From an uncultured virus (IMG/VR IMGVR_UViG_3300029911_000018) (lineage: Duplodnaviria; Heunggongvirae; Uroviricota; Caudoviricetes), in IMG/VR virus record IMGVR_UViG_3300029911_000018: DNA of 64,000 bases; one strand, 5' to 3'. Of the stretch, positions 960 to 14,061 are shown piece after piece (positions within the stretch are counted from its first letter, which is position 1; each line of letters begins with the position of its first letter). Under the pieces are notes generated by a model, which saw nothing but the letters and a program-made list of their open reading frames with translations, had not been told where the DNA came from and did no database searches. The translations under genes were made by a program, and so were the position numbers.

Positions 960-983
960 CACGCTTCCTTCTCAAATCAAACT

Positions 984-1060: not shown

Positions 1061-1220
1061 TATCCGGGTTCGACATTAGTCTACCCGGCTCAGAGACTTG
1101 CCTCGAATACCGCTACTTGATTTAGCTACACACAGGCCACTAACCCAAGACAGTCGATTTGATACTTCATTCAGAGGGTCGCTCTACACACATAATACTC
1201 AAAGTCAGCTAAGTTGGCTA

Positions 1221-1727: not shown

Positions 1728-1832
1728 GGTTGGTTATTCCTTTCGGGGTACATCTTCTTCTCGGCGACTTGAAAGTTGAAAACCTTCCTTCCGATTTTCA
1801 CCGTCCCGAACGGTACGCTCTGCCAGACTGAG

Positions 1833-2051
1833 CTACACCCCGATTAACCTCTTCGCATCTTCCGCCGCGTCGATGTCCTCCCAAGCCTTCGCTTGAAAGC
1901 AGTCGTCGCAGTCCACCTTCGTCTCCACAGTGTCAATCTCATGCGTGGTCACCCCTGTGCGGCCACAGTAGGTGACATGCAGCGTGGTGGGCATCCTGTA
2001 CAGACCCTCGGTCGCCATCCCTGTGTAACGTTTGCGTGATAGATGCATCAT
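1833..2051 (-). CDS. hypothetical protein
   Basis: Abuts the stop codon of the release-factor gene. Confidence 0.55.
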   Translation of the reverse strand: MMHLSRKRYTGMATEGLYRMPTTLHVTYCGRTGVTTHEIDTVETKVDCDDCFQAKAWEDIDAAEDAKRLIGV

Positions 2052-2712
2052 TTACCAAATCCCCCGTACGTAGTTTGAGTACGTCCAAACCTGTCCAGTC
2101 ACGTGGTCTGTGACCTTCCCATCCTGCTCCCGGATAGTGCGGCGTTTATCCCCCCGCTGGCCGGTGCCTATCTGCTGGCGACGGTCGGCTACTTCCTTGC
2201 CTACCTTTGCCTCTCGCTCCAACGCTTCCAGCTTAGCACTCAGGATGATGAGAGCCAACTCTTTATTACGATACTGACTGCGTTCCGCCTCACAGCGCAC
2301 CATCAACCCGCTTGGAAGATGATGAACCCGAACTGCGGTTTCAACCTTATTGACGTTCTGCCCACCCTTACCACCACTTCGCATTGTGTCCCATTCAAGG
2401 TCTTTGGGGTCGATGCTGAATGTTGTGGTTACCCTCTCTTCAAAGACGGCTACAGTGATTGTTGATGTCTGGCGTCGGCCTCGTCTTTCGGTCGGCGGGA
2501 CTCGTTGCCACCGATGACCTCCAGACTCATTAGCAAAGACCTGCTCAACGTCTTTCCCCGTTACGCGGAATACTGCAATACCGGGTCGCGTCTCAAGAAT
2601 CTCAACGCTAAAGACCCCTCCGCTGACCCAGCCTTGCATAAATAGCCAACTGGTCAGCCACTAGAAGCTTGGCGTCATCGCCACCTTCTGCTGCTCGAAT
2701 TTCAACAATCAT
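2052..2712 (-). CDS. class I peptide chain release factor (RF1-like, lacking domain 1) with programmed +1 frameshift at 2608-2613
   Basis: Frame 0 MIVEIRAAEGGDDA..RRGL then CTT-TAG-C preceded by GGAGGGGT; +1 frame has E.G.HR.QRVPPTE.RGR.QTST and GGQNVNK. Confidence 0.9.
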
Positions 2713-2725
2713 ACTGCCTCCAAAG

Positions 2726-2802
2726 TGGTTCAGGGAGGTGGACTCGAACCACGCTATTCGTTCGACCTTATGAGGGTGAACGCCATACCATCGGACCCCT
2801 GT
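2726..2802 (-). tRNA. degenerate tRNA(CAT)
   Basis: CTCATAA loop, GTTCGAGTC T-arm, CCA end; D arm poorly formed. Confidence 0.55.
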
Positions 2803-2981
2803 GTAATCTGCATGGCCCCTTGGCGGGGCCATAAGCGCCCTAGACTTTCGTCCTCGGCACCGTTCGTCGCAACACTCAATAGCGTCCAACTATTGAGCAC
2901 GGTATCAGCATGACTTAAATCCAACGCCCTCTGGATGAAGGCTGCACGAATTCAGCGGTCGGTTGCTGGCCTACGTTAAAT

Positions 2982-3059
2982 TGGTCGGGGTGGAGGGATT
3001 TGAACCCCCGATACCTTGCTCCCAAAGCAAGTGCGTTAGCCAGACTACGCTACACCCCG
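2982..3059 (-). tRNA. tRNA-Pro(TGG)
   Basis: CGGGGTG..CTTGC-TTTGGGA-GCAAG..ACCA. Confidence 0.92.
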
Positions 3060-3176
3060 TTGAATTGCTGTGGGACTCAGACTCTAGGTGGGAACGACCC
3101 ACCGCACTGTACCCCGCTTGATAAGCAGTTGGCCGTTACCCTACTGAACCAGCACGCTCAGGCCACACAGCAAACT

Positions 3177-3252
3177 TGGCCCCCATGGTAGGAGTTGAAC
3201 CTACATCCCTCGGCCTCAACATGCCGGTGCTCTACCGTTGAGCTACATCGGG
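3177..3252 (-). tRNA. tRNA-Asn-like (GTT) with 8-nt anticodon loop
   Basis: Canonical D/T arms, G73-CCA, CGGC-ATGTTGAG-GCCG. Confidence 0.6.
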
Positions 3253-3266
3253 GATAAATCTAAACT

Positions 3267-3343
3267 TGGTCAGCCCGGAGAGATTCGAACTCTCGACCCC
3301 ACCCACCCCAAGGGTGTGCGCTACCAGACTGCGCTACGGGCTG
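3267..3343 (-). tRNA. tRNA-Pro(GGG)
   Basis: CACCC-TTGGGGT-GGGTG anticodon arm, CCA. Confidence 0.92.
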
Positions 3344-3366
3344 AAACTCTACAATACTACAAAACT

Positions 3367-3443
3367 TGGTCAGGGTGAGAGGATTTGAACCTCCGACTTC
3401 TCGTATCCGAAACGAGGACTCTACCAGACTGAGCTACACCCTG
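3367..3443 (-). tRNA. tRNA-Pro(CGG)
   Basis: CTCGT-TTCGGAT-ACGAG anticodon arm, CCA. Confidence 0.92.
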
Positions 3444-3455
3444 ATGGTAAAAACT

Positions 3456-3543
3456 TGGTCGGGGTGAAGGGACTCGAACCCTCAGTGCGCTTAAGCTCCT
3501 GTTTCCAAAACAGGTCGGCTACCATCTACCGATTTACACCCCG
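3456..3543 (-). tRNA. tRNA-Pro(TGG) with long variable arm
   Basis: CCTGT-TTTGGAA-ACAGG, extra arm GCTTAAGC, CCA. Confidence 0.85.
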
Positions 3544-3645
3544 ATACGACAACATGAACACCGGGGATGAGAAAGTGGAAATTAGGGAAGTTGGAAATCA
3601 ACCCTTCATCACATCCCGGCGTGGCCGCACGGGATGCTGAGGTCT

Positions 3646-3714
3646 CTAGTGGACTTCAGTCCCGTGCAACATAGGGCACGGTCGAAACGAACGGGTTGGT
3701 CGTGTGAAACTCAT
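3646..3714 (-). promoter_or_regulatory. leader peptide upstream of the tRNA-Pro array (probably leaderless mRNA)
   Basis: MSFTRPTRSFRPCPMLHGTEVH (CCA, CCG, CCT); ATG is 6 nt after TATTAT; alternative pairings and a C-rich tract downstream. Confidence 0.65.
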
Positions 3715-3850
3715 ATATACATAATACACAGAAAGTCGGTAAGTTCAAACACTATTTTTGAATATTCTCTATTTTCTTTTTCCACAGGTCGGGAGTATAC
3801 TCTGAACAGCAGGGTCATACCGACCCTCTGGATACCCATGGGAGGATAGT

Positions 3851-4111
3851 ATGAATCTTGAAGACTTCAAAAATCAACTGAGGATGGACATCCGGCGTAT
3901 GCAAGCCGCGTTGGCCGCACTCGAAGGATCAGCAATGGCGGAAACCCCGAAACTATCAGCAAAGACCAAAGAGAAGATTTCCAATAGCATGAAGGCAAAC
4001 TGGGCAGGTGGGCGGAAACGTACCTTATCCAAGGCTGTGAAGATCAAGATCGCGGCCTCACAACGTGCCCGTTGGGCGAAGCAGAAGGAAGCAGCAGCAG
4101 CGGCGGCGTAA
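3851..4111 (+). CDS. small basic protein with repeated KIS..K/R.RW motifs
   Basis: GGAGG RBS; paralog of 4282-4608. Confidence 0.75.
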   Translation: MNLEDFKNQLRMDIRRMQAALAALEGSAMAETPKLSAKTKEKISNSMKANWAGGRKRTLSKAVKIKIAASQRARWAKQKEAAAAAA

Positions 4112-4132
4112 CTTCTCTTAGGTCTTCTTACC

Positions 4133-4165
4133 ACCCCCACAGAGAGTACCTGTGGGGGTTATTTT
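4133..4165 (+). terminator. intrinsic terminator
   Basis: CCCCCACAG..CTGTGGGGG followed by TTATTTT. Confidence 0.75.
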
Positions 4166-4281
4166 ATCCCGTGTCCCTTTTTGACCATACGCCTCACCAA
4201 GCATTAAGTAGACTCCGAAATAACCCGTCGTACAACCTTAACTAGGGGGTTGCATCTGATGGGATTGTAAGAGGAGGATAC

Positions 4282-4608
4282 ATGGATTTTGACGACATTG
4301 TTAACGAACTCAGGGTTCAGCAGCGCCGGATCAATGCGGCTCTTGTTGCTCTTGTGGGGACGGCTCAGGCCGACGCTCCGGTAACACAACCTGCACCAAA
4401 GATCACTGCAACCCCCAACCACCGTACAACCCGTCGTTCTTCAATGTCTTCAGGAGTGAAGCGGAAGATTTCGCTTGCCATGAAGCAGAACTGGGCAAGC
4501 CGGAAGCCTAAGCTCAAGTTGTCGCCGGAAATCAAGAGCAAGATTTCTTCCTCACAGAAGGCACGCTGGGCGTCGATCAAGGCAGCGGCTCAACAGATGG
4601 CAGCTTAG
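4282..4608 (+). CDS. small basic protein, paralog of 3851-4111
   Basis: GAGGAGG RBS; shared AAL.AL.G and Q.ARWA motifs. Confidence 0.75.
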   Translation: MDFDDIVNELRVQQRRINAALVALVGTAQADAPVTQPAPKITATPNHRTTRRSSMSSGVKRKISLAMKQNWASRKPKLKLSPEIKSKISSSQKARWASIKAAAQQMAA

Positions 4609-4697
4609 CTGCTCATTCCACCAAAGTGGACTCTGACCTCCATGAGCAGCTTGCCGAGGATGTTCTCGCCTCGTGGCTCATGGGGGCCTTGCTTACA
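4605..4697 (-). pseudogene. duplicated 3' end of the NADAR gene
   Basis: CKQGPHEPRGENILGKLLMEVR vs CRQGPHEPEGLNHLGRILMEVR in 5212-5709. Confidence 0.8.
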
Positions 4698-4702
4698 TTA
4701 CA

Positions 4703-5164
4703 TTACAGAAACCGCGTCCACTCCCTCGACTTAAGCTGCCAACCCCTGTATGCCTTAATTTTCCCACTCGTAAGTTTGTGAAACTGACGGTAGCTGCTGC
4801 TGTTGATTCGACAAAATTCTTTCAAATTACTCATCTGCACTTCTATTCCATCTGGATTAGTCAAAGTGTAGGTAACTCGATGTTTGGCGTTATGTCTAGC
4901 CTTGTCACTAAGCTGAGTCCCCTTAGCGGGGCGATTTGCTTGCAGAGCTACAAGTGTGACGGCGGGGACGGGGAGCCCTTTGTGTGACTGAGAAAGACGT
5001 TTCTTTCGAGCACCTGAAATCTTTCGCCCCTTAAGGGCTAAGCTAATTTTCTTCCCCACTTCGGGGGAGCACGAACCGGGAGCAGATTCCGTGCGCTTGG
5101 GAGGAAGCGGGATGGATGCGGTCGCGGGAGTGATTTTTGTCCACTGATACATAACTAGCTCCAA
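4703..5164 (-). CDS. NUMOD3-motif protein (homing endonuclease DNA-binding part)
   Basis: KKISLALKGRKIS..KKRLSQSHKG; C-terminal YTLTNPDG..NLKEFCR..YRGW. Confidence 0.7.
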   Translation of the reverse strand: MELVMYQWTKITPATASIPLPPKRTESAPGSCSPEVGKKISLALKGRKISGARKKRLSQSHKGLPVPAVTLVALQANRPAKGTQLSDKARHNAKHRVTYTLTNPDGIEVQMSNLKEFCRINSSSYRQFHKLTSGKIKAYRGWQLKSREWTRFL

Positions 5165-5211
5165 GTATACAGGATGTATCCACCCCTACAATAAGGTGGA
5201 TAGTCGAGTTA

Positions 5212-5709
5212 TTATGCCTGTAATTCCCTTTTACTGTATGTAGAGTAGTATTCGCGAACCTCCATGAGAATCCGACCAAGGTGGTTCAATCCCTCCGGTT
5301 CATGTGGCCCTTGTCTACAAGTCCCATCACACACCCCGAAGAATAGGTCATGCCAATTATTTCCTTCCACCAACTCCGCTGTGAAGGTTGAGATGAGTTT
5401 CCGACGAAGAATAGTTGGGTAGAATTTCTGCATCAGCAAATCCCGCATGATGCCTATGTTCACTTCCTTCCAATCTGGCCGGAGCTTGCCACTGTCTGAA
5501 ATGGCCTTACCCATGCGCTTAGCCCGACCCGCCGTTACCCCGGCGTAGAGAAACTTCTCCCGCTCTTTCAAGTTGAGTGTTTTAGCGGCCTGATACGCAT
5601 GTTCGACTGAAGGATAGGTCACTTCATCCAACACCACACTGCATGGGTAAAAGTTGGAGAGAAACCCCCACGGGTCTTTAAAACGGTCAATCAAAACGGG
5701 CAGGTCCAT
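5212..5709 (-). CDS. NADAR (YbiA-like) family protein
   Basis: FLSNFYP..YPSVEHAYQAAK..LVEGN.W.D.FFG..N.LG.ILMEVR. Confidence 0.92.
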   Translation of the reverse strand: MDLPVLIDRFKDPWGFLSNFYPCSVVLDEVTYPSVEHAYQAAKTLNLKEREKFLYAGVTAGRAKRMGKAISDSGKLRPDWKEVNIGIMRDLLMQKFYPTILRRKLISTFTAELVEGNNWHDLFFGVCDGTCRQGPHEPEGLNHLGRILMEVREYYSTYSKRELQA

Positions 5710-6119
5710 TAGTTCTTCTTTCCTGCAAGGAGCCGGTCAATCTCTCCTGCGTCATCCACATCTTTTACAATACTATGAAACACACATAGTGCATCAGTGG
5801 CTGCTGTAAAAATTCTACATATCTGTGGTCGGTCATCATAAATAGTGCAACGACCGTTCGTCCCGAGCTTTGGACAAGTGAACCATACATGAGCCCGTGT
5901 CCCCTTATGTGTGTGCCCACCAACCTCCAAGGGAATGTAGGGTAGTTTCTCCCTACGCATTGCAGCCTCGGCGTCTTTACGCCAACTATCCACCTTCCAT
6001 GAGCGGTATCGACCAACAGGTGTGGTAAGCATGAACCTCTTGCAACAATGCCCCGGCTCCGGGCATACGCCACAGAGCCGATTAGCTTGATGGTCAATGA
6101 TTGGGAATAGGCTACTCAA
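5709..6119 (-). CDS. YkgJ-like cysteine-cluster protein
   Basis: CxxC..GHCC and CP.L...GRCTIYDDRPQICRIF. Confidence 0.8.
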   Translation of the reverse strand: MSSLFPIIDHQANRLCGVCPEPGHCCKRFMLTTPVGRYRSWKVDSWRKDAEAAMRREKLPYIPLEVGGHTHKGTRAHVWFTCPKLGTNGRCTIYDDRPQICRIFTAATDALCVFHSIVKDVDDAGEIDRLLAGKKN

Positions 6120-6489
6120 GGGCAGTGGCGACCTCGCTAAGGAATTCTTTTGAATCGATGGCCTTGTCCAGCACCTTCACGAGGTTCAGGGGCGGGTAGT
6201 TCTTCAAAACGTTACGTACAAACGAAGGGTCTGAAGAAAACATCAACACCCGCTGTTTGTCATTATTACGGAGCACTCGTCGCATCAACTCGGCTCCATC
6301 CATGTGAGGCATAGACCAATCGCTTAGGACGAGGGTGAAGCCGTCGTTTGACCCACGGTAGGTTGCAAGCCCCTCAACCCCGTCCTGAGCCTCTACAACG
6401 TCAAAACCAGCCCCTTTAAGGATGGTTCCGAAATACTCCCGGCAGTTCTTGTCGTCATCCACTAAAAGTACACGAGTTGATAGATTCAT
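6112..6489 (-). CDS. single-domain response regulator receiver (CheY-like)
   Basis: VLLVDDD..A.DG.EGL..LVLSDWSMPHMDG. Confidence 0.9.
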   Translation of the reverse strand: MNLSTRVLLVDDDKNCREYFGTILKGAGFDVVEAQDGVEGLATYRGSNDGFTLVLSDWSMPHMDGAELMRRVLRNNDKQRVLMFSSDPSFVRNVLKNYPPLNLVKVLDKAIDSKEFLSEVATALE

Positions 6490-6638
6490 ATCCTCGGCCT
6501 CTTCAAAATAGCTTCACGCTGCTCCAGCGTCCAATACCCCAAGTCAAACTCTGCCTTCGTAATAGAGATGAATTTTGGTTGTTCATGTGCGTAGTTAAGT
6601 GAATAGCCTTCCCGGTCTTCTGTCACCCCCACGATGAA

Positions 6639-6857
6639 TCAACCCTTTCCTGTAGCCTTGACTCCCCGTGAACGGAGAGATGAATCCAGAGACTGTTCCT
6701 TAATAGCCGCGTCGGAGAACACCAGACCATACCTATCCCCAAAGATGGCGGTAGCAAGACGTACAGCCTTGTACATATCCCGGAGGTATACCATCTCTTC
6801 GTCAGTGAGGTGGTCACCCATGGCGAACGCTTGAATAAGAGCACGAGGTTCTTTCAT
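6639..6857 (-). CDS. hypothetical protein
   Basis: ATGA overlap with the upstream ORF. Confidence 0.55.
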   Translation of the reverse strand: MKEPRALIQAFAMGDHLTDEEMVYLRDMYKAVRLATAIFGDRYGLVFSDAAIKEQSLDSSLRSRGVKATGKG

Positions 6858-7197
6858 GCTCCATCCCGCTTCCCAGACTTTCCATCCGCAATACCGCGCT
6901 CGTAGGAGATTCGCATGGTTTGCTGAAGCACCATGTTAACGGCATCCCGAAGGCTCCGGCCAGCACCAAGCTCCATGAGAATGTAGCCGGTCCAATAGTT
7001 GAGCAACTCGACAAAAGACATCTCTTCCAGAGTCTTTTCGTGAGACGACTTACTTGCCTTTGGCATGGGTTCCCTTCTTGGCCTCGTTGACGGCCTTGGC
7101 GACAACACGAGTCGCCTTGGTGGTGTCACGACGGGCGTGCCCCTTGATGGGAGTGTTGCACTCAGCGCAGCGGGTGGATTTGGGCATCGTAAGTCTC

Positions 7198-7431
7198 CTA
7201 GTAGTTTTTGTGGGCGTCCCAGCCGCCACCTTCGTAGTCAATCTCTTCCTCGCGGTGTGAGAAACTACCCCGCAGGAGAGCCGCGTACTGCCCTGTTCGT
7301 TGTTCCTGCTTGACTGCCTTGCAGGATTTAGAGCAAAACCGAGCCCATCCGCGTTTGACATCAGCGAAACGAGCAGTGAAAGACTTACCACACTGCTTGT
7401 TCTCGCATTTACGCTCAACTCGCGTTGGCAT
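7198..7431 (-). CDS. small Cys-rich phage protein
   Basis: C...CGK.F..R.AD.KRGW.RFCSKSCK; GAGG RBS; promoter TATACT upstream. Confidence 0.7.
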   Translation of the reverse strand: MPTRVERKCENKQCGKSFTARFADVKRGWARFCSKSCKAVKQEQRTGQYAALLRGSFSHREEEIDYEGGGWDAHKNY

Positions 7432-7529
7432 CTATTACCTCACACACTCAGTATACCGGGAGTATAGAGGTTTTGGATAGTATTTTAGGGAATTTTTTTA
7501 TGGGTAGGTAGCAAAGCAAAGTCGCACCC

Positions 7530-7943
7530 TTATTTCAGCTTATCTCGTACAACCTTATCAGGTGACAACCCATCTTGCCGGTAGTCCTCTAATAGAGCCA
7601 GAGAGTAATCGGCGATAGTAGTGTTAGAGCAATCACCCCAAACCTCAATAATCAATTCGGCGACTCTTTTATACCACGCTATCTTATCCATCTCATTCCT
7701 GACTTCACGAAGCCTATGAATGAAGGAGCGTTTGTCCAGTTCAATAGCCCCAAGCATTACAGCAACGGCACGCCTTGGTCTGAGCAAATCGTAGTGAGGG
7801 AACGATGTCGGCTGGAACCATTGCCTCTTCATACCGATAGCATCCGCCATGGCGTGAAGCTCATCTATAGTATCCGCAATCATGTGGCAAGCATACTTCC
7901 ATCGGCCATACTGTACTTAACGGATTGGATCGACATAAACCAT
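7530..7943 (-). pseudogene. DUF4031 family gene with in-frame TAA at codon 9
   Basis: MVYVDPIR*VQYGRWKYACHMIADTIDELHAMA..IGMKRQWFQ..HYDL. Confidence 0.7.
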
Positions 7944-8362
7944 TAAGCAGGTATAAACGGCTGGTTCTTTTGTTCCCAGCCGTAGCAAAGATCACATTCG
8001 CAACAGAAGCCCTCTTCATCGTGCTCCTCGGCCAAATGTCCACATCTACAGACACGCCTGACGTATCGGGAGCATCCTGTGTCGTGTCCTCCCCGTAAAT
8101 CGCGTTCACATTCTCCGCACTCAAGCCCCACGTGTTCTCCGAAGATGGTTCACCCACACTTGTTTCGCAGCATCCCTCATCGCGTTACGAGTGTCAATGC
8201 AGCTATCGCAACCATAGCTTTTAGGCCCACCACCACATTCAGGACAACAGTCACAAGAGGGAATATCATCCTCAAAAGGGTCTCTGCAAAACTGACAAGC
8301 ACGTCTAATGGTCACCGGCATTTTTCTTATCCCTCACACTGTAAAATTCATTACCATGCATG

Positions 8363-8698
8363 TTAATACCCTAAATCCTCACCTCTCCAAGCATACAAAT
8401 CATCAATAGCCAACTCATCCAGTCGGCCTATATTCTTGGCTCCGAAGTTTGGGGTTTGGGCATGACAGTTGGGACACAGAAAACGGATGTTATCCGGTTC
8501 ATTGTTCAGCCAGTCGCCATCAATGTGGTCGATTTGAAGAACAATCGGTCGGCCTATCCATTCAGGGTTTTTGTGTAAGGGACATCTAGGATCAGAGCAC
8601 CGATAGGGGACACCTGATTCCAACATAGCCCGTCGCAAGCGAGTCACATGCTCTCGATGTTTCTTGCGATTCCTAACTAGAATCTGGCTCCAGTGCAT
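8363..8698 (-). CDS. HNH endonuclease
   Basis: LQIDHIDGDWLNN...NIRFLCPNCHAQT. Confidence 0.85.
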   Translation of the reverse strand: MHWSQILVRNRKKHREHVTRLRRAMLESGVPYRCSDPRCPLHKNPEWIGRPIVLQIDHIDGDWLNNEPDNIRFLCPNCHAQTPNFGAKNIGRLDELAIDDLYAWRGEDLGY

Positions 8699-8710
8699 TC
8701 ATTGTAATAC

Positions 8711-8798
8711 TGGTACCCGACCCCGGACTCGAACCGGGAACCGCATTTCGCTTCTCGGGAGTTTAAGCCCCGCGCCTTTGCCATTTGACCAGTCGGGC
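8711..8798 (-). tRNA. tRNA-Leu(TAA)
   Basis: CGGGG-CTTAAAC-TCCCG, long variable arm, CCA. Confidence 0.9.
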
Positions 8799-8805
8799 AT
8801 AACTT

Positions 8806-8894
8806 TGGTCGGGAAGGTGGGACTTGAACCCACAACCGTTTCACACTTATCGAGTGTTTGAGACTCGCGCCTTTGCCAATTTGACCACATCCCG
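8806..8894 (-). tRNA. tRNA-Leu(CAA)
   Basis: CGAGT-CTCAAAC-ACTCG, long variable arm. Confidence 0.9.
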
Positions 8895-9010
8895 ATTTGA
8901 AACTATTGGAGACCAGTTACTCAATCGCCTTGGCGTGTATCTCGCCTACCACAGCTTTCGCCAGTCATACGGGGATCAGCGTACGTCCGTTTCACAGACT
9001 TATCCAAATT

Positions 9011-9097
9011 TGGTGCGCCCGAAGGGACTCGAACCCATACCCCCTTGCGGGGATTAGCACCTCAAGCTAACGCGGCTACCAATTACGCCACGGGCGC
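9011..9097 (-). tRNA. tRNA-Leu(GAG)
   Basis: TTAGC-TTGAGGT-GCTAA. Confidence 0.92.
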
Positions 9098-9158
9098 AAA
9101 CTTCTACTACAACAAAACTTGGTGCTTCACATTCTTACCACAAGTGCCTGTGCCAGAA

Positions 9159-9236
9159 TGGTAGCCGAGGTGGGATTCGAACCCACACTGTACGGATTTT
9201 GAGACCGTTGCCTCCTGCCAGTTGCGCTACTCGGCC
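9159..9236 (-). tRNA. tRNA-Leu(CAA), short variable loop
   Basis: ACGGT-CTCAAAA-TCCGT, CCA. Confidence 0.85.
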
Positions 9237-9251
9237 ATTACATCAAAACTT

Positions 9252-9335
9252 TGGTAGCCCCACTCGGACTCGAACCGAGACGCCTTTCGACATTAGTTCC
9301 TAAGACTAACGTGTCTGCCATTCCACCATGGGGCC
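9252..9335 (-). tRNA. tRNA-Leu(TAG)
   Basis: TTAGT-CTTAGGA-ACTAA. Confidence 0.92.
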
Positions 9336-9343
9336 GTTAAAAC

Positions 9344-9574
9344 CTATCGCTCCGTACGCTGCGTCTTCGGAAGGTCGAGACCCCAGCCACGCTGGATATT
9401 CTCGGAGTCCTGACGCATGTACACAGCCGCAACTTTCCATTCACCACTCTCGGGCTCATCCTTCAGGGTGATAACAGAGCCGCGCTTCACACCTCGGTTA
9501 GCGGGAACCCACGCCACCTTACAGTGAATACCGCGTTCTGACTCTTGCTGCAACATTGTTTGAACTAATTCCAT
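9344..9574 (-). CDS. hypothetical protein
   Basis: 76-aa ORF (MELVQ..) between tRNAs. Confidence 0.55.
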   Translation of the reverse strand: MELVQTMLQQESERGIHCKVAWVPANRGVKRGSVITLKDEPESGEWKVAAVYMRQDSENIQRGWGLDLPKTQRTER

Positions 9575-9591
9575 TTCTTTCTCTTTCTTTA

Positions 9592-9679
9592 TGGTGCCCG
9601 GAGAGGGATTCGAACCCCCACGAGAATTAACCCACTGGCTTCTAAGACCAGCGCGTCTCGCCAATTTCGCCATCCGGGC
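9592..9679 (-). tRNA. tRNA-Leu(TAG)
   Basis: CTGGT-CTTAGAA-GCCAG. Confidence 0.92.
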
Positions 9680-9684
9680 ACATC

Positions 9685-10323
9685 TTAAATTCGACCCCTT
9701 CTCCATCCAATCAAAACGTAAGAGGTCAAATCGTTTTGCTTAATCTTGATGGCTCTTTCACCGTCCGTTACCCAACGAGTACCGAACTGTGAATTCTTAT
9801 CCCCCGCTCTATTCACCAATGCCATCTTTGCTTTGGTGTCCGCCCTGTGCTTCCGACCAGTCCAAGTGCGTTTACTCGCCGCTGAAATCTTAGCTGACAC
9901 ATCCGGTTCAACACCATGTTCCCTAATCTGGTTGGCCCGAGCCTCACTCATCATCTTGTAATGCTGTGGGTCTCGATGACTCTGAGAACTGTGTGACACT
10001 CTGGCGGCATTGGCGTAGTCGGCCAACCCTTCTCGATTGATATAGTCAAACCCACCAGAGCCCCCTTTTCTCAAATTCATACAGAGAGGGTTACCCCGCC
10101 AACATTGAATCAACTCATCCTCTTTGCCAAATGCTGATTCAACATCGAGGTAGATGAACAGGACTTCCTTATGGAAGTTTTGTTCCCCATATTTTGCAAC
10201 GGCTCGTTTGATGTATGTACCGGAACCGAGGTACGCATCATCAGGGTCTTTCGTTTTGTGAACCCCGAAGTAGAACTTGCCGTTGAGCAGGTTGACGGTT
10301 TTGTAAACCGTGTAGTATGTCAT
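9685..10323 (-). CDS. GIY-YIG (Seg-like) homing endonuclease with NUMOD3
   Basis: VYKTVNLLNGKFYFGVH..YLGSG..KYGEQNF.KE..MNL..GG.GG. Confidence 0.9.
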   Translation of the reverse strand: MTYYTVYKTVNLLNGKFYFGVHKTKDPDDAYLGSGTYIKRAVAKYGEQNFHKEVLFIYLDVESAFGKEDELIQCWRGNPLCMNLRKGGSGGFDYINREGLADYANAARVSHSSQSHRDPQHYKMMSEARANQIREHGVEPDVSAKISAASKRTWTGRKHRADTKAKMALVNRAGDKNSQFGTRWVTDGERAIKIKQNDLTSYVLIGWRRGRI

Positions 10324-10368
10324 GAACCTATCAGTGCCCTCTACATAAGATACTGATAATCACGAATG

Positions 10369-10453
10369 TGCATGGAGTAGGATTTGAACCTACGTAGCCC
10401 CAAGGGGCGGGTGTTTTACAGACACCTAGTTTTAACCACTCACTCATCCATGC
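10369..10453 (-). tRNA. tRNA-Tyr(GTA), no encoded CCA
   Basis: GGTGT-CTGTAAA-ACACC, long variable arm. Confidence 0.9.
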
Positions 10454-10460
10454 AAACTTT

Positions 10461-10553
10461 TGGTGCGTCCGACAGGATTTGAACCTGTTGTGTTTACCGC
10501 TTGGGTGCCGAGTTTACAGCCCGGTGCCACTCCCCCGTCGTGACCGCGAACGC
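10461..10553 (-). tRNA. tRNA-Tyr(GTA), unusual D arm
   Basis: CCGGG-CTGTAAA-CTCGG, CCA. Confidence 0.82.
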
Positions 10554-10554
10554 A

Positions 10555-10716
10555 TTACTGCTTCGGAACATGTTGAAGATGAAGTGTACGCACAGCCTCA
10601 AGGTTACGCTGTGCTGCTTCTCTCGTAGTTCCCGAGGTCACCAGACCCCAAGTTCTATCTTCAGCCACCCAACGCTTTGTTTCCGCGTCGAGCCAAAATT
10701 GTTCCGTTTCAAACAT
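10555..10716 (-). CDS. orphan HicB-like antitoxin domain (53 aa)
   Basis: MFETEQFWLDAETKRWVAEDRTWGLVTSGTTREAAQRNLEAVRTLHL; GGAG RBS. Confidence 0.6.
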   Translation of the reverse strand: MFETEQFWLDAETKRWVAEDRTWGLVTSGTTREAAQRNLEAVRTLHLQHVPKQ

Positions 10717-10724
10717 CTTTCTCC

Positions 10725-10754
10725 AAAAACAAAAGCCGCCCCAATCGGGGCGGC
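10725..10754 (-). terminator. attenuator terminator
   Basis: GCCGCCCC-GATT-GGGGCGGC-TTTTGTTTTT. Confidence 0.9.
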
Positions 10755-10780
10755 TTCGTGATTCATCTGAACTTTGGGGT

Positions 10781-10873
10781 TTAGATTGAGCCCCCTTCAG
10801 ACGACACGAAGCCGTTGCTAAGCAGGTAATACAAGCTTAGGCTAAGGTTCGAGTTGACTGATAAGCGGTTCAT
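10781..10873 (-). promoter_or_regulatory. Leu/Tyr leader peptide with antiterminator
   Basis: MNRLSVNSNLSLSLYYLLSNGFVSSEGGSI; 10790-10814 is complementary to 10751-10779. Confidence 0.85.
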
Positions 10874-11012
10874 ATTCTTCCTCTCGGGCAGTGCCCGTTT
10901 CACATCTGTATACATAATACCGCGAAAGTTGAGGTTTTCAACACTGTTTTTGAATTTATTTTCATAGCTTATGGATTTTTCACTTTCCACCTCCTCTGTA
11001 GGAGGGTTTGAC

Positions 11013-11756
11013 ATGCCAAATCCAAATGTGAAACTCGGTCGCAAAGCCGTTAAGACCGACTCAAGAACTTTGAAGCTTTCCCCTTATATGAAGATGTTAC
11101 CCCCGCCCCCGGCCTCTGTGGACTGGACGAAGGGGAACACCTCGTGGGGGATGATGCTGAATGACACCCTTGGTTGCTGCACCATTGCCGGAGCCGCGCA
11201 CGCTATTCAAGTGTGGAGCACTGAAACCGGCAGTGAAGTTACCGTACCTGATTCTACTGTACTTCAATATTATGAGCAGTGGGATGGGTATGTAAACGGC
11301 AACCCGTCAACCGACAACGGGGGTGTCGAACTCGATGTTCTCAATAAATGGAAGTCACAGGGGCTCCTCGGTCACAAGTTAGTGGCCTTTGCTGATCCAC
11401 AGGTTCGCAACCACACAGAGATTATGCAAGCAATCAACCTCTTCGGTGGTGTTTACATCGGGATGCAAGTTCCCAACTACATCATCAACAACATCCCGGC
11501 TCTGTGGCAGATTGCGACCGCAGGACAGGACACTGGCATTGATGGTGGGCACTGTGTGTTTGTCTGTGGTTATGATGCAGTGGGGGTATCCTTCATCTCG
11601 TGGGGACAGGTCTACAAGATGACATGGGCCTACTGGGATGTGTATGTGGATGAGGCACACGCCCTACTCTCGCAGGACTGGATAAACTCCAAGGGAGTTG
11701 ATGTCCAAGGCTTCGACCTTGCACAACTGCAAACTGACTTATCTCAAATCAGCTAA
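11013..11756 (+). CDS. papain-like (C1) cysteine peptidase
   Basis: PASVDW..LGCCTIA..GGHCVFVCGYD..SWG; AGGAGG RBS. Confidence 0.85.
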   Translation: MPNPNVKLGRKAVKTDSRTLKLSPYMKMLPPPPASVDWTKGNTSWGMMLNDTLGCCTIAGAAHAIQVWSTETGSEVTVPDSTVLQYYEQWDGYVNGNPSTDNGGVELDVLNKWKSQGLLGHKLVAFADPQVRNHTEIMQAINLFGGVYIGMQVPNYIINNIPALWQIATAGQDTGIDGGHCVFVCGYDAVGVSFISWGQVYKMTWAYWDVYVDEAHALLSQDWINSKGVDVQGFDLAQLQTDLSQIS

Positions 11757-11757
11757 C

Positions 11758-11785
11758 AAAAAGCCACCCAGTTGGGTGGCTTTTC
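11758..11785. terminator. bidirectional terminator
   Basis: AAAAAGCCACCCA-GT-TGGGTGGCTTTT between convergent genes. Confidence 0.8.
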
Positions 11786-12104
11786 TCTTGCTCTCAAGAG
11801 TAGGGGTTGTGGTGATGCTTGTGGTGGTGCTTGTGATACCATTCGCTGGCATGAATACGACGCCAGAAATCCTCACAGATTTCCGCTGCGTGTTCAGGAT
11901 AAGCTTGAACGAATCGTGCCCATGCACGCTCTCTGGCTTCGACACCTTCAGCATCACAAATCCAACCGTAAGCGATGGTCTCCCAATACTGGACATCGTC
12001 TACACCGCTTGGGGTCGCTGGCTGCTTTGAAGCTACCGGCTTTTTCTTTTTACCAAAAATACCCATATGATTATCCATCCTCATATAAGAACTGAGTAAT
12101 CGTT

Positions 12105-12431
12105 TTAGTGACCGTACCAAATCTTGGTCAGATAGATACCCATAATGGAACCTAAAGCACCCCCGATGGTGTACCCAATACCGCCCCACAAGCCGCGAGA
12201 ATCATCCTTAATAGCCAACCGGGATATTACCATTGCCATCATGAATGCCTGAGCCCCATACACAGAGTCCACAATAACCGTCCAGACGTAGTTACCCTGT
12301 GCTGTAGCCCGGATGCTGGCTACGAAGAGGAAATACGAGGAGAACTGAGTAATGGCAAAAAATAGGCACTGCCCCAAGGGTGTCTTGGGAGCATGAAGGT
12401 TACTCAACCACCTGTTGATGCGGTTCCACAC
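12105..12431 (-). CDS. small membrane protein
   Basis: Several hydrophobic segments. Confidence 0.6.
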   Translation of the reverse strand: MWNRINRWLSNLHAPKTPLGQCLFFAITQFSSYFLFVASIRATAQGNYVWTVIVDSVYGAQAFMMAMVISRLAIKDDSRGLWGGIGYTIGGALGSIMGIYLTKIWYGH

Positions 12432-12452
12432 TATTTACGTGTCTCCTCAACT

Positions 12453-12863
12453 TTAAGCATACCTCACCCTCTCTACCCCGGCTCTGCGGCGTCTATAACT
12501 CCAATCAACGGTTACGTGGTAACTGGCGTAAAACCAATCCATCTTCTCCGCACCACCACATTCCGATGCTCCTGATTCAAACCCCAACGCTTCGTACTCT
12601 TGCAACAAACCCTCCAAGTCAGGTTGAATGAATTGCCGCCATACATCTACCTCTTGGTTAGTTCTATATTTGGGGGAATGAATTTGGACTGCGGCCTGAT
12701 AATCCCCTTTACCAACCGCCTCAAGCTGCGCCATGGTCATATAATCCCTAAACTCTTGAGTCCAAGGTTCACCCATCACTATGACCCATTTACTTAGTAG
12801 TTTTTCGTTCTTCAATTCATAGGCTTCATCAGACCACTTACGAGCAGTTTGAACCGAAATCAT
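12453..12863 (-). CDS. hypothetical protein
   Basis: ATGA-coupled ORF. Confidence 0.6.
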   Translation of the reverse strand: MISVQTARKWSDEAYELKNEKLLSKWVIVMGEPWTQEFRDYMTMAQLEAVGKGDYQAAVQIHSPKYRTNQEVDVWRQFIQPDLEGLLQEYEALGFESGASECGGAEKMDWFYASYHVTVDWSYRRRRAGVERVRYA

Positions 12864-13819
12864 CCGCGTACTCCCTCAGTCAGTTCCAACATTGAATACT
12901 GCGCCTTCAGCTTTTCAAACGCCTTCTTAAGGTGTGTGCCATATTGGTCGGTAACAATAAGCACTGAATTCATACGGGGGATCATGATACACATCTCCGA
13001 GGTGATGTCGTGGGCAGCGAAGACCTCATCCATAATCTTTCGGGCGAACAGAACCTCTTGTAGAATTTCACCGCCAGATTTCGAGAAGAATGGGTATGGA
13101 ATCCCTTCGGCCATAAATCCAGTTGTGGCGAAGCTACCACCGGGAGAGCCGAAAGTGGCCTTTGCCATGGTCGGACCTGAGTCTGGAGCCCAGTGGATAT
13201 AGAAGGGTTTAAGGTTTGGTAGCGTTTTGAGGTACTTGTCACCGCCGACGCCGAGCATGGATATGTTACGACTGTCGGAGAAGGCTGGTGTGGTACCAAT
13301 GGGAGAGAGGCGGTAGCTTACCTGAGGAGTGAACTGTGCGAGAATCTTCAACGACTTGAGCGTACTCAACACATTATTGTGTTGCTTCTCCTCATCGGTC
13401 GATGCATTCTTCACCATTTTTGCCTTAGGCTCAAAAGGATTGAGCTTAGCGTCCTTCGGCCATGTAGCCTTCAACTTGTCCACCTCCGCTTGAGCATCCG
13501 ATGTCAGATAAGCCATGCCGGTATATGACTGAAGGTTTAACAGCACCTGAGTGAAGAGAGCGTAATCAAGTTGATTGTAGAGACAACGAAGGACAGCCAG
13601 CTTGTCATAGCCGGTTGGCTCTGACTTAATTTCTGGACCTGAGGCAATCCAACAATCACGAAACATCTTGTTAAGAAGCGTGCTGCCGTGGTCGGTGCGG
13701 CTGAATTCAAGATGCTCAAAAGTCTTCTTGAATTCAGCTTGCATGGCTTCTTCAGACAAAAATACTTCATGGATTCGAGCGGCGAATGTGTCAGCGACAC
13801 GTTGGTAAATCTCTTGCAT
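12860..13819 (-). CDS. hypothetical protein
   Basis: 319-aa ORF with GGAG RBS. Confidence 0.75.
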   Translation of the reverse strand: MQEIYQRVADTFAARIHEVFLSEEAMQAEFKKTFEHLEFSRTDHGSTLLNKMFRDCWIASGPEIKSEPTGYDKLAVLRCLYNQLDYALFTQVLLNLQSYTGMAYLTSDAQAEVDKLKATWPKDAKLNPFEPKAKMVKNASTDEEKQHNNVLSTLKSLKILAQFTPQVSYRLSPIGTTPAFSDSRNISMLGVGGDKYLKTLPNLKPFYIHWAPDSGPTMAKATFGSPGGSFATTGFMAEGIPYPFFSKSGGEILQEVLFARKIMDEVFAAHDITSEMCIMIPRMNSVLIVTDQYGTHLKKAFEKLKAQYSMLELTEGVRG

Positions 13820-14061
13820 AATTTAACTCCCTAATTTTCTTTTCAGGTAAGCTATGCGCTTCTCCCTACGTTCTTGCTTACCCATAAGCTCCGAGTAATC
13901 GGGACATCCACAGGAAGGGCAACAGACACCACCGTCTGCCCAAAACTCAACCCCCATGCGGTCGAGATAGCGTTCTGTACGTTCCACACTTCGCACAAGG
14001 TTGTTCAACTCAACCCGTAACGGGCTCAGTTTCTCTCTGCGGAACAAACGTGAGAACCAAC

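What the first reader, a model, noticed from the sequence alone, without database searches (positions are those of the whole stretch)
10725..10920. Leu/Tyr sensor leader upstream of 2 tRNA-Tyr and 6 tRNA-Leu genes
The leader uses TTA, CTT, CTA, TTG, CTG, CTT (five different Leu codons) and adjacent TAT TAC. Its 3' part CGGCTTCGTG-TCGTCTGAA-GGGG pairs extensively with CCCC..TTCAGATGA..CACGAAGCCG, which overlaps the terminator GCCGCCCC/GGGGCGGC-U tract. The leader is also Ser/Asn-rich although I see no such tRNAs in this array, so the match is not exclusive.
Basis: partly seen in the sequence, partly recalled or inferred. Interest (0 to 1): 0.9.

Follow-up and report, generated by a model that had tools for sequence, protein, structure and literature searches.

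The report
Codon-matched leader switch before phage tRNAs
A tiny translated test gene, written in the codons that the downstream tRNA genes read, is wired to a switchable transcription stop, so this giant phage probably makes its spare leucine and tyrosine tRNAs only when ribosomes run short of them.

Summary
On the minus strand there is a sigma-70-like promoter (10941..10914), a Shine-Dalgarno site, a 30-codon ORF (10873..10781), a long hairpin (10814..10751) with the stop codon in its loop, and an intrinsic terminator (10757..10722) that shares 7 bases with the hairpin. Two tRNA-Tyr and six tRNA-Leu genes follow.

In fold modelling, a ribosome at codons 1-16 leaves the hairpin intact and the terminator disabled. 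From codon 17/18 to the stop codon the terminator forms. Six of the eight Leu/Tyr codons lie in that window.

The window is from a roughly 300-kb peat phage and holds two more such leaders. Each leader's codons cover every anticodon of its own tRNA block (A 5/5, B 13/13, C 4/4). A complete 463-kb relative has six leader/array pairs, and the true pairing beats all 719 other permutations. A close relative keeps the peptide through mostly synonymous changes.

The leader's Ser and Asn codons are not explained by this array. Function is inferred, not shown. Four literature searches found no description of leader-peptide control of tRNA genes. Earlier notes of this scan report the same design on other phage DNA.

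The parts
10912..10941 (-). Promoter: -35 TTGAAA (10941-10936), 16-nt spacer, -10 TATTAT (10919-10914), inside an 18-nt motif shared by three tRNA blocks
   Evidence: 10 of 12 consensus matches; the motif occurs exactly 3 times in the window (3719-3736, 10912-10929, 45348-45365), all on the minus strand and each upstream of a tRNA block; 0 of 100 shuffles give any exact match.
10877..10897 (-). 5' untranslated region with a small 5-bp hairpin (10897-10885) and a Shine-Dalgarno site (10885-10877), 3 nt before the ATG
   Evidence: Read; folds. An RNA-library contig ends at 10897 next to adapter sequence, a weak hint that the transcript starts at or just upstream of this point.
10781..10873 (-). 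Leader ORF, 30 codons plus TAA: MNRLSVNSNLSLSLYYLLSNGFVSSEGGSI
   Evidence: The relative L003 keeps the peptide: 8 of the first 21 codons differ and 6 of those changes are synonymous. No Pfam or PHROG family matches the longest frame.
10823..10864 (-). Sensing window: codons 4-17 with L4, L10, L12, L14, Y15, Y16 (L17 borderline), interleaved with Ser and Asn codons
   Evidence: With the ribosome A site at codons 1-16 (1-17 with a 12-nt footprint) the three basal terminator pairs have probability 0.28 or less. From the next codon to the stop codon they have probability 1.00/1.00/0.98.
10751..10814 (-). Antiterminator hairpin (10 + 9 + 4 pairs); the leader's stop codon lies in its apical loop
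10722..10757 (-). Intrinsic terminator: 11-bp stem (8 G-C), 4-nt loop, U tract. Its 5' arm shares 10757-10751 with the antiterminator.
   Evidence: -18.3 kcal/mol. A 1-nt length variant of the C run occurs in metagenome and RNA-library contigs.
10555..10716 (-). 53-codon ORF with its own Shine-Dalgarno site just after the terminator. Present in this phage only.
   Evidence: weak DUF7387 match, E 3.5e-4, below Pfam's cut-off. Absent in L003.
10461..10553 (-). tRNA-Tyr-like gene (GTA anticodon, enlarged D arm), not called in the window
   Evidence: Read. Its ortholog is called tRNA-Tyr(gta) by ARAGORN in L003 and L095. Alignment.
10368..10453 (-). tRNA-Tyr (gta)
9685..10323 (-). GIY-YIG homing endonuclease gene inside the array
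   Evidence: phrog_314, E 4.6e-37.
8711..9679 (-). Six tRNA-Leu genes (tag, tag, caa, gag, caa, taa)
45134..45365 (-). Paralogous unit B: promoter motif 45365-45348, 47-codon leader 45329..45186, antiterminator 45214..45160, terminator 45164..45144 plus U tract. It sits directly before the 17-gene Val/Gly/Ala/Cys/Asp/Glu array.
   Evidence: Four diverged versions plus G007. Antiterminator helix: 90% of cells paired, 2 pairs changed on both sides.
3646..3736 (-). Unit C: the same promoter motif and a 22-codon ORF with CCA, CCG, CCT and ATG codons before the Pro (and Met) tRNAs. Structured, but without a U-tract terminator.
   Evidence: A homologous ORF stands before the Pro/Met/Phe array of G007.

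Best explanation
This is a ribosome-mediated leader-peptide transcription attenuator that gates a phage tRNA-Tyr/tRNA-Leu gene array.

Transcription starts at a strong sigma-70-type promoter, and a ribosome loads on the 30-codon leader.

If Leu and Tyr codons (and, as built, also Ser and Asn codons) are decoded quickly, the ribosome runs into the 5' arm of the long hairpin and on to the stop codon in its loop. The 3' arm is then free, the terminator forms, and RNA polymerase stops at about 10727-10722, before the tRNA genes.

If the ribosome lingers at codons 4-16 for lack of a usable aminoacyl-tRNA, the hairpin forms first and takes 7 bases of the terminator stem. Polymerase then reads through into the two tRNA-Tyr and six tRNA-Leu genes. 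The products relieve the shortage, which gives negative feedback.

Shown by sequence and computation: the parts, their geometry, their conservation and the codon-anticodon match.

Inferred: stalling, the switch in vivo, and what depletes the tRNAs. Candidates are host tRNA-cleaving defence, loss of host tRNA during infection, or the phage's own codon demand.
For: 1. Anatomy. Promoter, Shine-Dalgarno site, 30-codon ORF, hairpin with the stop codon in its loop, and an overlapping terminator.

2. Switch geometry. The basal terminator pairs have probability 0.28 or less with a ribosome at codons 1-16, and 1.00/1.00/0.98 from codon 17/18 to the stop. L4, L10, L12, L14, Y15 and Y16 lie inside that window.

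3. Codon match. The leader's codons cover 5 of 5 distinct anticodons of the array. The window's other leaders cover 13/13 and 4/4 of theirs.

4. Frequency by chance for leader A: 104 of 15045 windows of the phage's own long frames.

5. Complete 463-kb relative G007. It has six leader/array pairs: Ser+Leu(taa), Trp/His/Arg/Asn/Gln/Lys, Thr/Gln/Ile, Val/Gly/Ala/Asp/Cys/Glu, Tyr/Leu and Pro/Met/Phe. Coverage is 5/5, 10/12, 6/6, 11/12, 6/6 and 5/6. Of 720 leader-to-array assignments only the true one reaches the observed diagonal score.

6. Relative L003. It has the same peptide core, and 6 of 8 changed codons are synonymous, including AGC to TCC and TTA to CTG. Its terminator lies about 13 nt from the first tRNA, so the array can only be reached by read-through.

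7. TTA tracks Leu(taa). The codon is in the window's Tyr/Leu leader, whose array holds Leu(taa). It is absent from the G007 Tyr/Leu leader, whose array lacks Leu(taa), and present in the G007 Ser leader, whose array holds it. L003's leader has no TTA and no Leu(taa) is seen in its array, but that contig ends 143 nt after the last tRNA.

8. Unbiased scan. There are 28 strong terminators on the tRNA strand of all fetched DNA. Twelve lie within 450 nt upstream of a tRNA. Eleven of those were flagged with a short ATG-ORF ending 21-35 nt before the stem. The twelfth is leader A itself, missed by my 70-codon filter.

9. Spacing. The distance from the stop codon to the 3' end of the terminator stem is 45-51 nt in 10 of 11 leaders and 57 nt in one.

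10. G007 leaders modelled the same way. The terminator is favoured with the ribosome at the stop codon (probability 0.97-1.00) and disfavoured with a stall at codon 9 or 13 (as low as 0.01-0.08 in the Ser and Tyr/Leu leaders).

11. No sigma-70-like site is reported between the terminator and the tRNAs.

12. RNA-library contigs from 4 peat or wetland metatranscriptome runs cover 10565-10897. None reaches past 10897 toward the promoter.
Against: No experiment exists; everything rests on sequence, folding and comparison.

The leader holds as many Ser (8) as Leu+Tyr (8) codons, plus 4 Asn, all partly inside the sensing window. No Ser or Asn tRNA is in this array. At amino-acid level the G007 Tyr/Leu leader matches the Ser array better (0.46) than its own (0.33). 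So the sensor is not specific for Leu and Tyr.

Only three versions of the Tyr/Leu leader were found (window type, L003 type, G007), too few for formal covariation.

In L003 the modelled antiterminator is weaker: terminator probability is 0.57-0.78 with a stall at codon 11.

In family B the two hairpins overlap by only a few bases, and the minimum-energy folds let both coexist with a shortened terminator.

Without any ribosome the window's leader A is predicted to read through (0.09-0.19), unlike most G007 leaders (0.77-1.00). It would therefore also respond to a general failure of translation initiation.

The RNA contigs cross the terminator. They cannot show 3' ends or levels, and DNA carry-over in those libraries is not excluded.

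Host and anti-Shine-Dalgarno sequence are unknown.
Confidence: 0.75

Rival explanations
1. General translation-capacity sensor. The unit measures whether ribosomes translate at all (initiation, elongation factors, global tRNA damage), not the supply of particular tRNAs. The codon match would only reflect shared ancestry or the composition of leaders and arrays.
For: With no ribosome the window's leader A is predicted to read through (terminator probability 0.09-0.19). Ser and Asn codons that do not match the array also lie in the sensing window.
Against: Each of nine leaders covers the anticodons of its own array better than other assignments do: only the true assignment of 720 (G007) and of 6 (window) reaches the observed score. 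TTA follows Leu(taa) between leaders. Most G007 leaders terminate in the no-ribosome fold.
Confidence: 0.1
2. An ordinary small-peptide gene with its own terminator. The peptide has a function of its own, the terminator is constitutive but leaky, and the tRNAs are made by basal read-through or from an unrecognised promoter.
For: The peptide sequence is conserved (MNR..LSLSL.Y.LLS.G) in three phages. RNA contigs cross the terminator.
Against: A strong terminator sits between a strong promoter and its only plausible products, and this arrangement repeats at 13 tRNA blocks. There is no room for a promoter in L003 or in family B, where the U tract lies 13-15 nt from the tRNA. The hairpin overlapping the terminator and the fixed stop-to-terminator spacing have no role in this reading. 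No family match was found.
Confidence: 0.08
3. An RNA-level element without a sensing role. It could be a 5' leader that stabilises or directs processing of the tRNA precursor (the phage carries its own RNase P RNA), or a short terminated transcript that acts as a small RNA.
For: The leader is strongly structured (z -4.65). An RNase P RNA gene lies in array B. Terminated attenuator RNAs acting in trans are described for a bacterial trp leader (PMC6614838; only the start of its abstract was seen, in the listing).
Against: The pattern of synonymous change and the codon-anticodon match point to selection on translation. No Rfam family matches the region at E of 1 or less.
Confidence: 0.05

Closest known systems
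Leader-peptide attenuators of enterobacterial amino-acid operons, above all leuL (leu operon) and the multivalent ilvL and thrL leaders (recalled from textbook knowledge; general mechanism as in the abstract of PMC1183508, seen in the listing)
   Same: A promoter-proximal short ORF with regulatory codons; mutually exclusive antiterminator and terminator hairpins; a stalled ribosome gives read-through and a ribosome reaching the stop codon gives termination; sensing of several amino acids at once, as in ilvL and thrL.
   Different: The regulated genes are tRNA genes, not biosynthetic enzymes, so the product is the sensed molecule itself. The regulatory codons are not a run of one codon but a sample of every isoacceptor class of the array (5/5, 13/13). 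There is no sequence or structure homology: no Rfam leader family matched. The element is carried by a phage.
pheM leader of the pheST (phenylalanyl-tRNA synthetase) operon of E. coli (recalled; not looked up here)
   Same: Leader-peptide attenuation applied to a gene of the translation apparatus, responding to charged tRNA.
   Different: It controls a synthetase rather than tRNA genes and has a single amino-acid specificity.
T-box riboswitches (Rfam RF00230)
   Same: Terminator/antiterminator control that reports the state of a particular tRNA.
   Different: T-boxes bind uncharged tRNA directly and need no translation. No T-box match was found in the window.
Strong constitutive promoters of phage tRNA genes that overcome tRNA-cleaving defence (T5 and SP15 tRNA-Tyr against retron-Eco7; PMC11555353, passages read)
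   Same: Phage tRNA-Tyr expressed from a strong promoter. Host tRNA-Tyr depletion is a documented defence outcome, so tRNA-Tyr supply is a plausible thing to sense.
   Different: That paper describes promoter strength only. The words for attenuation and leader peptide do not occur in it.
Codon-matched leader/terminator units before tRNA arrays of other phages, noted earlier in this scan (e1-2978539, e1-5886956, e1-5943215 and others; AI notes)
   Same: The same design: promoter, short ORF in the array's codons, switchable terminator.
   Different: Different phages and sequences. I did not examine that DNA.

Membership tests
Ribosome-mediated leader-peptide transcription attenuators (trpL/hisL/leuL/thrL/ilvL/pheL class) | Short ORF with a ribosome-binding site directly downstream of the promoter | tested here: met
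   Promoter 10941..10914; Shine-Dalgarno site 10885-10877; ATG 10873; 30 codons. Mostly synonymous change against L003.
Ribosome-mediated leader-peptide transcription attenuators (trpL/hisL/leuL/thrL/ilvL/pheL class) | Regulatory codons cognate to what the operon supplies | tested here: met
   8 of 29 codons are read by the array's tRNAs and all 5 distinct anticodons are covered. The frequency in the phage's own frames is 104/15045. Caveat: 8 Ser and 4 Asn codons are unmatched.
Ribosome-mediated leader-peptide transcription attenuators (trpL/hisL/leuL/thrL/ilvL/pheL class) | Intrinsic terminator between the leader ORF and the regulated genes | tested here: met
   Stem 10757..10732 plus U tract; -18.3 kcal/mol.
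Ribosome-mediated leader-peptide transcription attenuators (trpL/hisL/leuL/thrL/ilvL/pheL class) | Alternative antiterminator structure that shares bases with the terminator | tested here: met
   Hairpin 10814..10751 shares 10757-10751 with the terminator. In the full-length fold the terminator is cut to 5 pairs.
Ribosome-mediated leader-peptide transcription attenuators (trpL/hisL/leuL/thrL/ilvL/pheL class) | Geometry: a ribosome stalled at regulatory codons spares the antiterminator, and a ribosome at the stop codon prevents it | tested here: met
   In-silico scan of ribosome positions: the switch lies between codons 16 and 18.
Ribosome-mediated leader-peptide transcription attenuators (trpL/hisL/leuL/thrL/ilvL/pheL class) | Regulated genes encode amino-acid biosynthesis enzymes or synthetases | tested here: not met
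   The downstream genes are tRNA-Tyr and tRNA-Leu genes, a homing endonuclease gene and a 53-codon ORF.
Ribosome-mediated leader-peptide transcription attenuators (trpL/hisL/leuL/thrL/ilvL/pheL class) | Termination responds to leader translation and charged tRNA in vivo or in vitro | not testable with these tools
   Only contigs from RNA libraries were available. They cover 10565-10897 but show no 3' ends or levels.
Rfam leader families (Leu_leader and the other amino-acid operon leaders) | Match to the family's covariance model | tested here: not met
   No leader family is among the 30 gathering-level matches of the window, nor among the 18 matches at E of 1 or less in 1..11000.
T-box riboswitch (RF00230) | Match to the T-box model (specifier loop and T-box sequence) | tested here: not met
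   No match.
Codon-matched leader/terminator units of phage tRNA arrays (this scan's working class; unpublished as far as my searches show) | Shared promoter, a short ORF in the array's codons, and a terminator directly before the tRNA block, repeated at several blocks of one phage | tested here: met
   Three units in the window (two of them with a terminator), six in G007 (five with a terminator), and further versions in G002-G005.

The most novel reading that the evidence does not exclude
The leaders together form a codon-resolved tRNA supply circuit. The phage sorts its tRNA genes (about 70 in the complete relative) into blocks. Each block sits behind a test gene that samples every isoacceptor class of the block. 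Depletion of any one of them, for example by a host anticodon nuclease or by infection-induced tRNA decay, switches on exactly that block. A phage-encoded RNase P RNA lies inside one regulated block, where it could process the burst of precursors. This would be a built-in sensor and countermeasure against tRNA-targeting immunity, rather than a response to amino-acid starvation.
Probability: 0.4. Interest if true: 0.92.

Novelty: new variant of a known kind. Interest (0 to 1): 0.85.

Why it matters
Why phages carry tRNA genes is a decades-old question. Codon compensation and escape from tRNA-cleaving defences are the current ideas (PMC10264068 and PMC11555353; passages seen). How phage tRNA expression is controlled has hardly been asked.

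A leader ORF that samples each isoacceptor of its block would mean the phage measures decoding speed codon by codon and makes replacement tRNAs on demand. That makes the purpose of the tRNA sets directly testable: which depletion opens which block.

It would also extend classical attenuation from metabolic operons to the translation machinery's own RNAs. The leaders' codon lists give a simple sequence signature for finding regulated tRNA arrays. The unit is also a compact, modular part for sensing decoding capacity in synthetic circuits.

Tried and rejected
A longer protein instead of a leader. The frame is open for 87 codons from a TTG at 11044, but it has no Pfam or PHROG match. The upstream part overlaps the promoter and the divergent gene's start. 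In L003 and G007 the frame is only 33 and 25 codons long. Rejected.

More relatives of leader A. A back-translated peptide pattern, a tRNA-Tyr 3'-end pattern in viral contigs and the same in metagenome contigs (12 loci) returned only the window type (L092, L097) and the L003 type (L095, L071, L086). The other 9 metagenome loci were unrelated bacterial or phage tRNAs. The neighbouring protein gave 23 viral loci, and only 1 (L003) keeps the tRNA array beside it.

Promoter-motif scan of viral contigs. It gave 41 loci, of which 3 are relevant (L042 from the same phage, L057, L052). The rest look like chance matches without tRNAs.

GenBank phages. Only 2 records matched 10300-11300, both through the tRNA-Tyr gene alone. 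Xanthomonas phage XbC2 has a lone tRNA-Tyr among protein genes and no such unit.

Own-genome search. The assembly is not held, and L092's 162-kb record is not held either.

RNAalifold on family B returned the terminator, not the antiterminator. I then counted the antiterminator helix by hand-given structure.

The promoter-like site before the Met tRNAs (about 1198) has no matching leader or terminator.

RNA-library contigs. There is no cover over the tRNA genes 10368-10553 in runs X1-X3 and none upstream of 10897. A part without cover proves nothing.

The search for related loci cannot take peptides under 48 residues.
Full report
WHAT THE WINDOW IS

The 64-kb window is phage DNA. ARAGORN finds 31 tRNA genes, all on the minus strand and grouped by amino acid. 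Homing-endonuclease genes lie between them, and a neighbouring gene matches a phage-only family. Rfam adds a full-length bacterial-type RNase P RNA inside one array. The window's own assembly is not held. Overlapping IMG/VR fragments are rated 21-24% complete at 67-74 kb, which implies a genome of roughly 300 kb. Near-identical contigs come from peat metagenomes.

THE OBSERVATION

It is correct, on the minus strand.
- A sigma-70-like promoter (TTGAAA, 16 nt, TATTAT; 10941..10914) is the second-best such site in 1..14000.
- Next come a short 5' region with a small hairpin and a Shine-Dalgarno site (10885-10877).
- The ORF has 30 codons (10873..10781; MNRLSVNSNLSLSLYYLLSNGFVSSEGGSI). Its Leu codons are TTA, CTT, CTA, TTG, CTG and CTT, and TAT TAC are adjacent.
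- The 3' third of the ORF and the sequence after it form one long hairpin (10814..10751) with the TAA stop codon in its apical loop.
- The last 7 bases of the hairpin are the first 7 bases of the terminator stem (10757..10732, 11 pairs, followed by a U tract to 10722).
- The 211-nt region folds at -75 kcal/mol against -56.7 for shuffles (z -4.65; 0 of 200 shuffles as good).

Downstream lie, in order:
- a 53-codon ORF;
- a tRNA-Tyr-like gene with an enlarged D arm, which neither ARAGORN nor Rfam calls here but whose ortholog ARAGORN calls tRNA-Tyr in a relative;
- a canonical tRNA-Tyr;
- a GIY-YIG endonuclease gene;
- six tRNA-Leu genes.

No tRNA-Ser or tRNA-Asn is found in 1..11000, even at E of 1 or less.

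THE SAME DESIGN RECURS IN THE WINDOW

An 18-nt promoter motif with 15 specified bases occurs exactly three times in the window, always on the minus strand and always upstream of a tRNA block (3719-3736, 10912-10929, 45348-45365). No exact match occurs in 100 shuffles.

Behind the third copy lies a second leader, B (45329..45186; MTIRTNISINTMDAPNTGVVGVVVAVAAAEAGCAGEDTMASGEIKTN). Its stop codon again lies in a hairpin loop, the hairpin's 3' arm again overlaps a terminator, and the terminator stands 15 nt before the first of 17 tRNA genes for Val, Gly, Ala, Cys, Asp and Glu.

Behind the first copy lies a 22-codon ORF (C) with CCA, CCG, CCT and ATG codons, before the Pro and Met tRNAs. It is structured but has no U-tract terminator.

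Under standard wobble rules, each leader's codons cover every distinct anticodon of its own block: A 5/5, B 13/13, C 4/4. In windows of the phage's own long reading frames, coverage plus cognate-codon count as high as observed occurs in 104 of 15045 windows (A), 5 of 14008 (B) and 213 of 15533 (C).

RELATIVES

The promoter motif led to a complete (CheckV 100%) 463-kb phage record, G007, with 69 Rfam tRNA matches in arrays syntenic with the window's. Every array start I examined has a promoter of the same type and a short ORF, and five of the six have a terminator.

| G007 leader peptide | tRNA genes that follow |
|---|---|
| MNRVSLSLSLLYSLLSGVGGGVFNG | Tyr, Tyr, Leu x4 |
| MNRISSLSSSSSSFGGFGERVRWRGW (six different Ser codons plus TTA) | Ser x4 and Leu(taa) |
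| MTSMKHNTVARKQWRNRRHDGVGLSSDTEFGK | Trp, His, Arg x4, Asn, Gln, Lys and others |
| MKQTQTTRTTTTQRITITGGGSGVSDGVIVT | Ile, Thr, Gln |
| an Ala/Val/Gly/Glu/Cys/Asp-rich leader | the matching array |
| MNLMRPFTMFRPCMPTMRRETIL (no terminator) | Pro, Met, Phe |

Coverage of own-array anticodons is 6/6, 5/5, 10/12, 6/6, 11/12 and 5/6 in the order of the table. Of the 720 possible leader-to-array assignments, only the true one reaches the observed diagonal score, by amino acid, by codon and by anticodon coverage.

I also ran an unbiased scan of all fetched DNA for strong terminators on the tRNA strand. It found 28.
- Twelve lie within 450 nt upstream of a tRNA.
- Eleven of these were flagged with a short ATG-ORF ending 21-35 nt before the stem.
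- The twelfth is leader A itself. My filter missed it because the frame stays open upstream.
- A thirteenth unit (G003, MRLTNQTRITTTTQTSVLRPRVFVRI) stands 645 nt before an Ile/Thr/Gln array.
- Of the other 14 terminators, 4 have some ORF ending nearby.

LEADER A IN RELATIVES

Only two further versions of leader A were found, despite three pattern scans.

In L003/L095 (82% identity in the neighbouring protein) the peptide core is kept. Of the first 21 codons, 8 differ and 6 of these changes are synonymous, including multi-base changes (TTA to CTG, AGC to TCC). The 5' untranslated region and the peptide's tail diverge. The 53-codon ORF is absent there, and the U tract lies about 13 nt from the first tRNA-Tyr. 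That array can therefore only be transcribed through the terminator.

Leader codons also track the arrays.
- The window has TTA and a Leu(taa) gene in the array.
- G007's Tyr/Leu leader has no TTA and its array has no Leu(taa). G007's Ser leader has TTA and its array ends with Leu(taa).
- L003 has three CTG codons and a Leu(cag) gene. It has no TTA and no Leu(taa) in the part of the array the contig shows.

Family B has four diverged versions plus G007.
- The core of 18 codons is nearly identical at DNA level.
- The terminator stem shows a compensatory G-C to A-U change.
- The antiterminator helix keeps 90% of cells paired, with 2 pairs changed on both sides.
- Sliding the 3' partner gives 25-70% paired, and 9 of 500 shuffles reach the observed value. 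With five sequences this is only modest support.

HOW IT MOST LIKELY WORKS

I modelled the RNA available when polymerase reaches the U tract, with a ribosome placed at each codon.
- With the A site at codons 1-16 (1-17 with a 12-nt footprint), the three basal terminator pairs have probabilities of 0.03-0.28.
- From the next codon to the stop codon they are 1.00/1.00/0.98.
- L4, L10, L12, L14, Y15 and Y16 lie in the read-through window, and the Tyr pair sits at its very end.

The G007 leaders behave alike. The terminator is favoured with a ribosome at the stop codon (0.97-1.00) and disfavoured with a stall at codon 9 or 13 (down to 0.01 in the Ser leader and 0.08 in the Tyr/Leu leader). In most of them it is favoured again with no ribosome at all, which is the classical three-state logic.

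The stop codon lies 45-51 nt from the 3' end of the terminator stem in 10 of 11 leaders and 57 nt in one.

The inference is this. Fast decoding gives termination before the tRNA genes. A ribosome waiting for Leu- or Tyr-tRNA (and, as built, Ser- or Asn-tRNA) gives read-through and more tRNA, which is negative feedback.

What depletes the tRNAs is open. Host tRNA-cleaving defences are documented, including depletion of tRNA-Tyr by a retron effector that phage tRNA-Tyr from a strong promoter overcomes (PMC11555353, passages read). The idea that phage tRNAs replace cleaved host tRNAs is in print (PMC10264068).

WEAK POINTS

- No experiment exists.
- Ser (8) and Asn (4) codons are unexplained. The Tyr/Leu and Ser leaders share the N-terminus MNR-x-S, so they look like paralogs. 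Ser, Leu and Tyr tRNAs are the three long-variable-arm tRNAs (textbook knowledge). This is a lead, not an explanation.
- In L003 the modelled antiterminator is weaker.
- In family B the hairpins overlap by few bases and can coexist in minimum-energy folds.
- Leader A reads through in the no-ribosome fold, so it would also respond to a general loss of translation.

EXPRESSION

Contigs from four peat or wetland metatranscriptome runs cover 10565-10897. None extends beyond 10897 toward the promoter, and one ends at 10897 next to adapter sequence. The contigs cross the terminator. One run holds a 90-95% identical copy of exactly 10726-10873 (leader plus terminator) in a different downstream context. 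Contigs show presence only, not ends or levels, and DNA carry-over is not excluded.

COMPARISON WITH WHAT IS KNOWN

The unit works like the classical leader-peptide attenuators, and like the multivalent ilv and thr leaders in sensing several amino acids (recalled; general mechanism per the abstract of PMC1183508 in the listing). It meets five sequence-level criteria of that class. It fails the criterion that the regulated genes be biosynthetic or synthetase genes. It matches no Rfam leader or T-box model.

Four full-text searches for leader peptides or attenuation together with phage tRNA genes, tRNA arrays, tRNA operons or huge phages returned no paper describing such control. Two key papers on phage tRNA function do not contain those words. 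Subscription journals and supplements were not searched.

The scan's own earlier notes describe the same design in other, unrelated phages: 71 notes in at least 66 genomes hold the search words. I take them as agreement in kind, not as evidence.

VERDICT

A real, conserved, codon-matched leader/antiterminator/terminator unit gates the Tyr/Leu tRNA array. It is one of a family of such units in this phage clade. It is a new variant of a known mechanism applied to a new class of genes. Confidence in the mechanism is 0.75.

Noticed in passing
window 43885-44282 (-): A full-length bacterial class A RNase P RNA (162.5 bits, E 1.5e-50, model positions 1-367) lies inside the phage's Val/Gly/Ala/Asp/Glu/Cys tRNA array, downstream of leader B. 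The same family is found in 4 of 5 related phage records searched (G007, G003, G006, G005), at the same place in the array.
   Followed up: partly
window 3646-3736 (-): Unit C has the same promoter motif and a 22-codon ORF that starts about 6 nt after the -10 box, so it may be leaderless. It has CCA, CCG, CCT and ATG codons and stands before the Pro and Met tRNAs. Its stop codon lies in a hairpin, but there is no U-tract terminator. A homologous ORF stands before the Pro/Met/Phe array of G007. The mechanism, if any, must differ from that of units A and B.
   Followed up: partly
window 3177-3252 (-): ARAGORN gives this tRNA a 4-base anticodon (gttg), while Rfam scores it as a normal tRNA (49.9 bits). 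The syntenic gene in G007 is tRNA-Gln(ttg).
   Followed up: no
L101 (G007:234000-245000) and L104 (G003:9500-21000): The relatives carry tRNAs with a CTA anticodon, which would read the TAG stop codon (three in G007, one in G003). G007 also has a tmRNA behind the same promoter motif. This hints at stop-codon recoding in this phage clade. Leader C of the window ends in TAG.
   Followed up: no
window 8363-8698 (-) and 9685-10323 (-): HNH and GIY-YIG homing-endonuclease genes sit between the tRNA genes of the Tyr/Leu array.
   Followed up: partly
window 9344-9706 (-): A small ORF ends in ..QRGWGLDLPKTQRTER. A homolog with the same ending lies in G007 between the Tyr/Leu leader's terminator and the first tRNA-Tyr. 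It is a conserved small protein of unknown function inside the arrays. The frame as listed overlaps a tRNA-Leu gene, so its true start is uncertain.
   Followed up: no
window 41403-41506 (-) and 41770-41837 (-): Two Rfam tRNA matches (45.3 and 46.3 bits) are not called by ARAGORN. One is 104 nt long and may be interrupted.
   Followed up: no
window 10742-10747: A one-base length polymorphism occurs in the C run and loop of the terminator. It is seen in a 162-kb metagenome contig and in RNA-library contigs from three runs.
   Followed up: no
window 1190-1225 (-): A fourth, imperfect copy of the promoter motif stands before a tRNA-Met gene. No codon-matched ORF or terminator follows it.
   Followed up: partly
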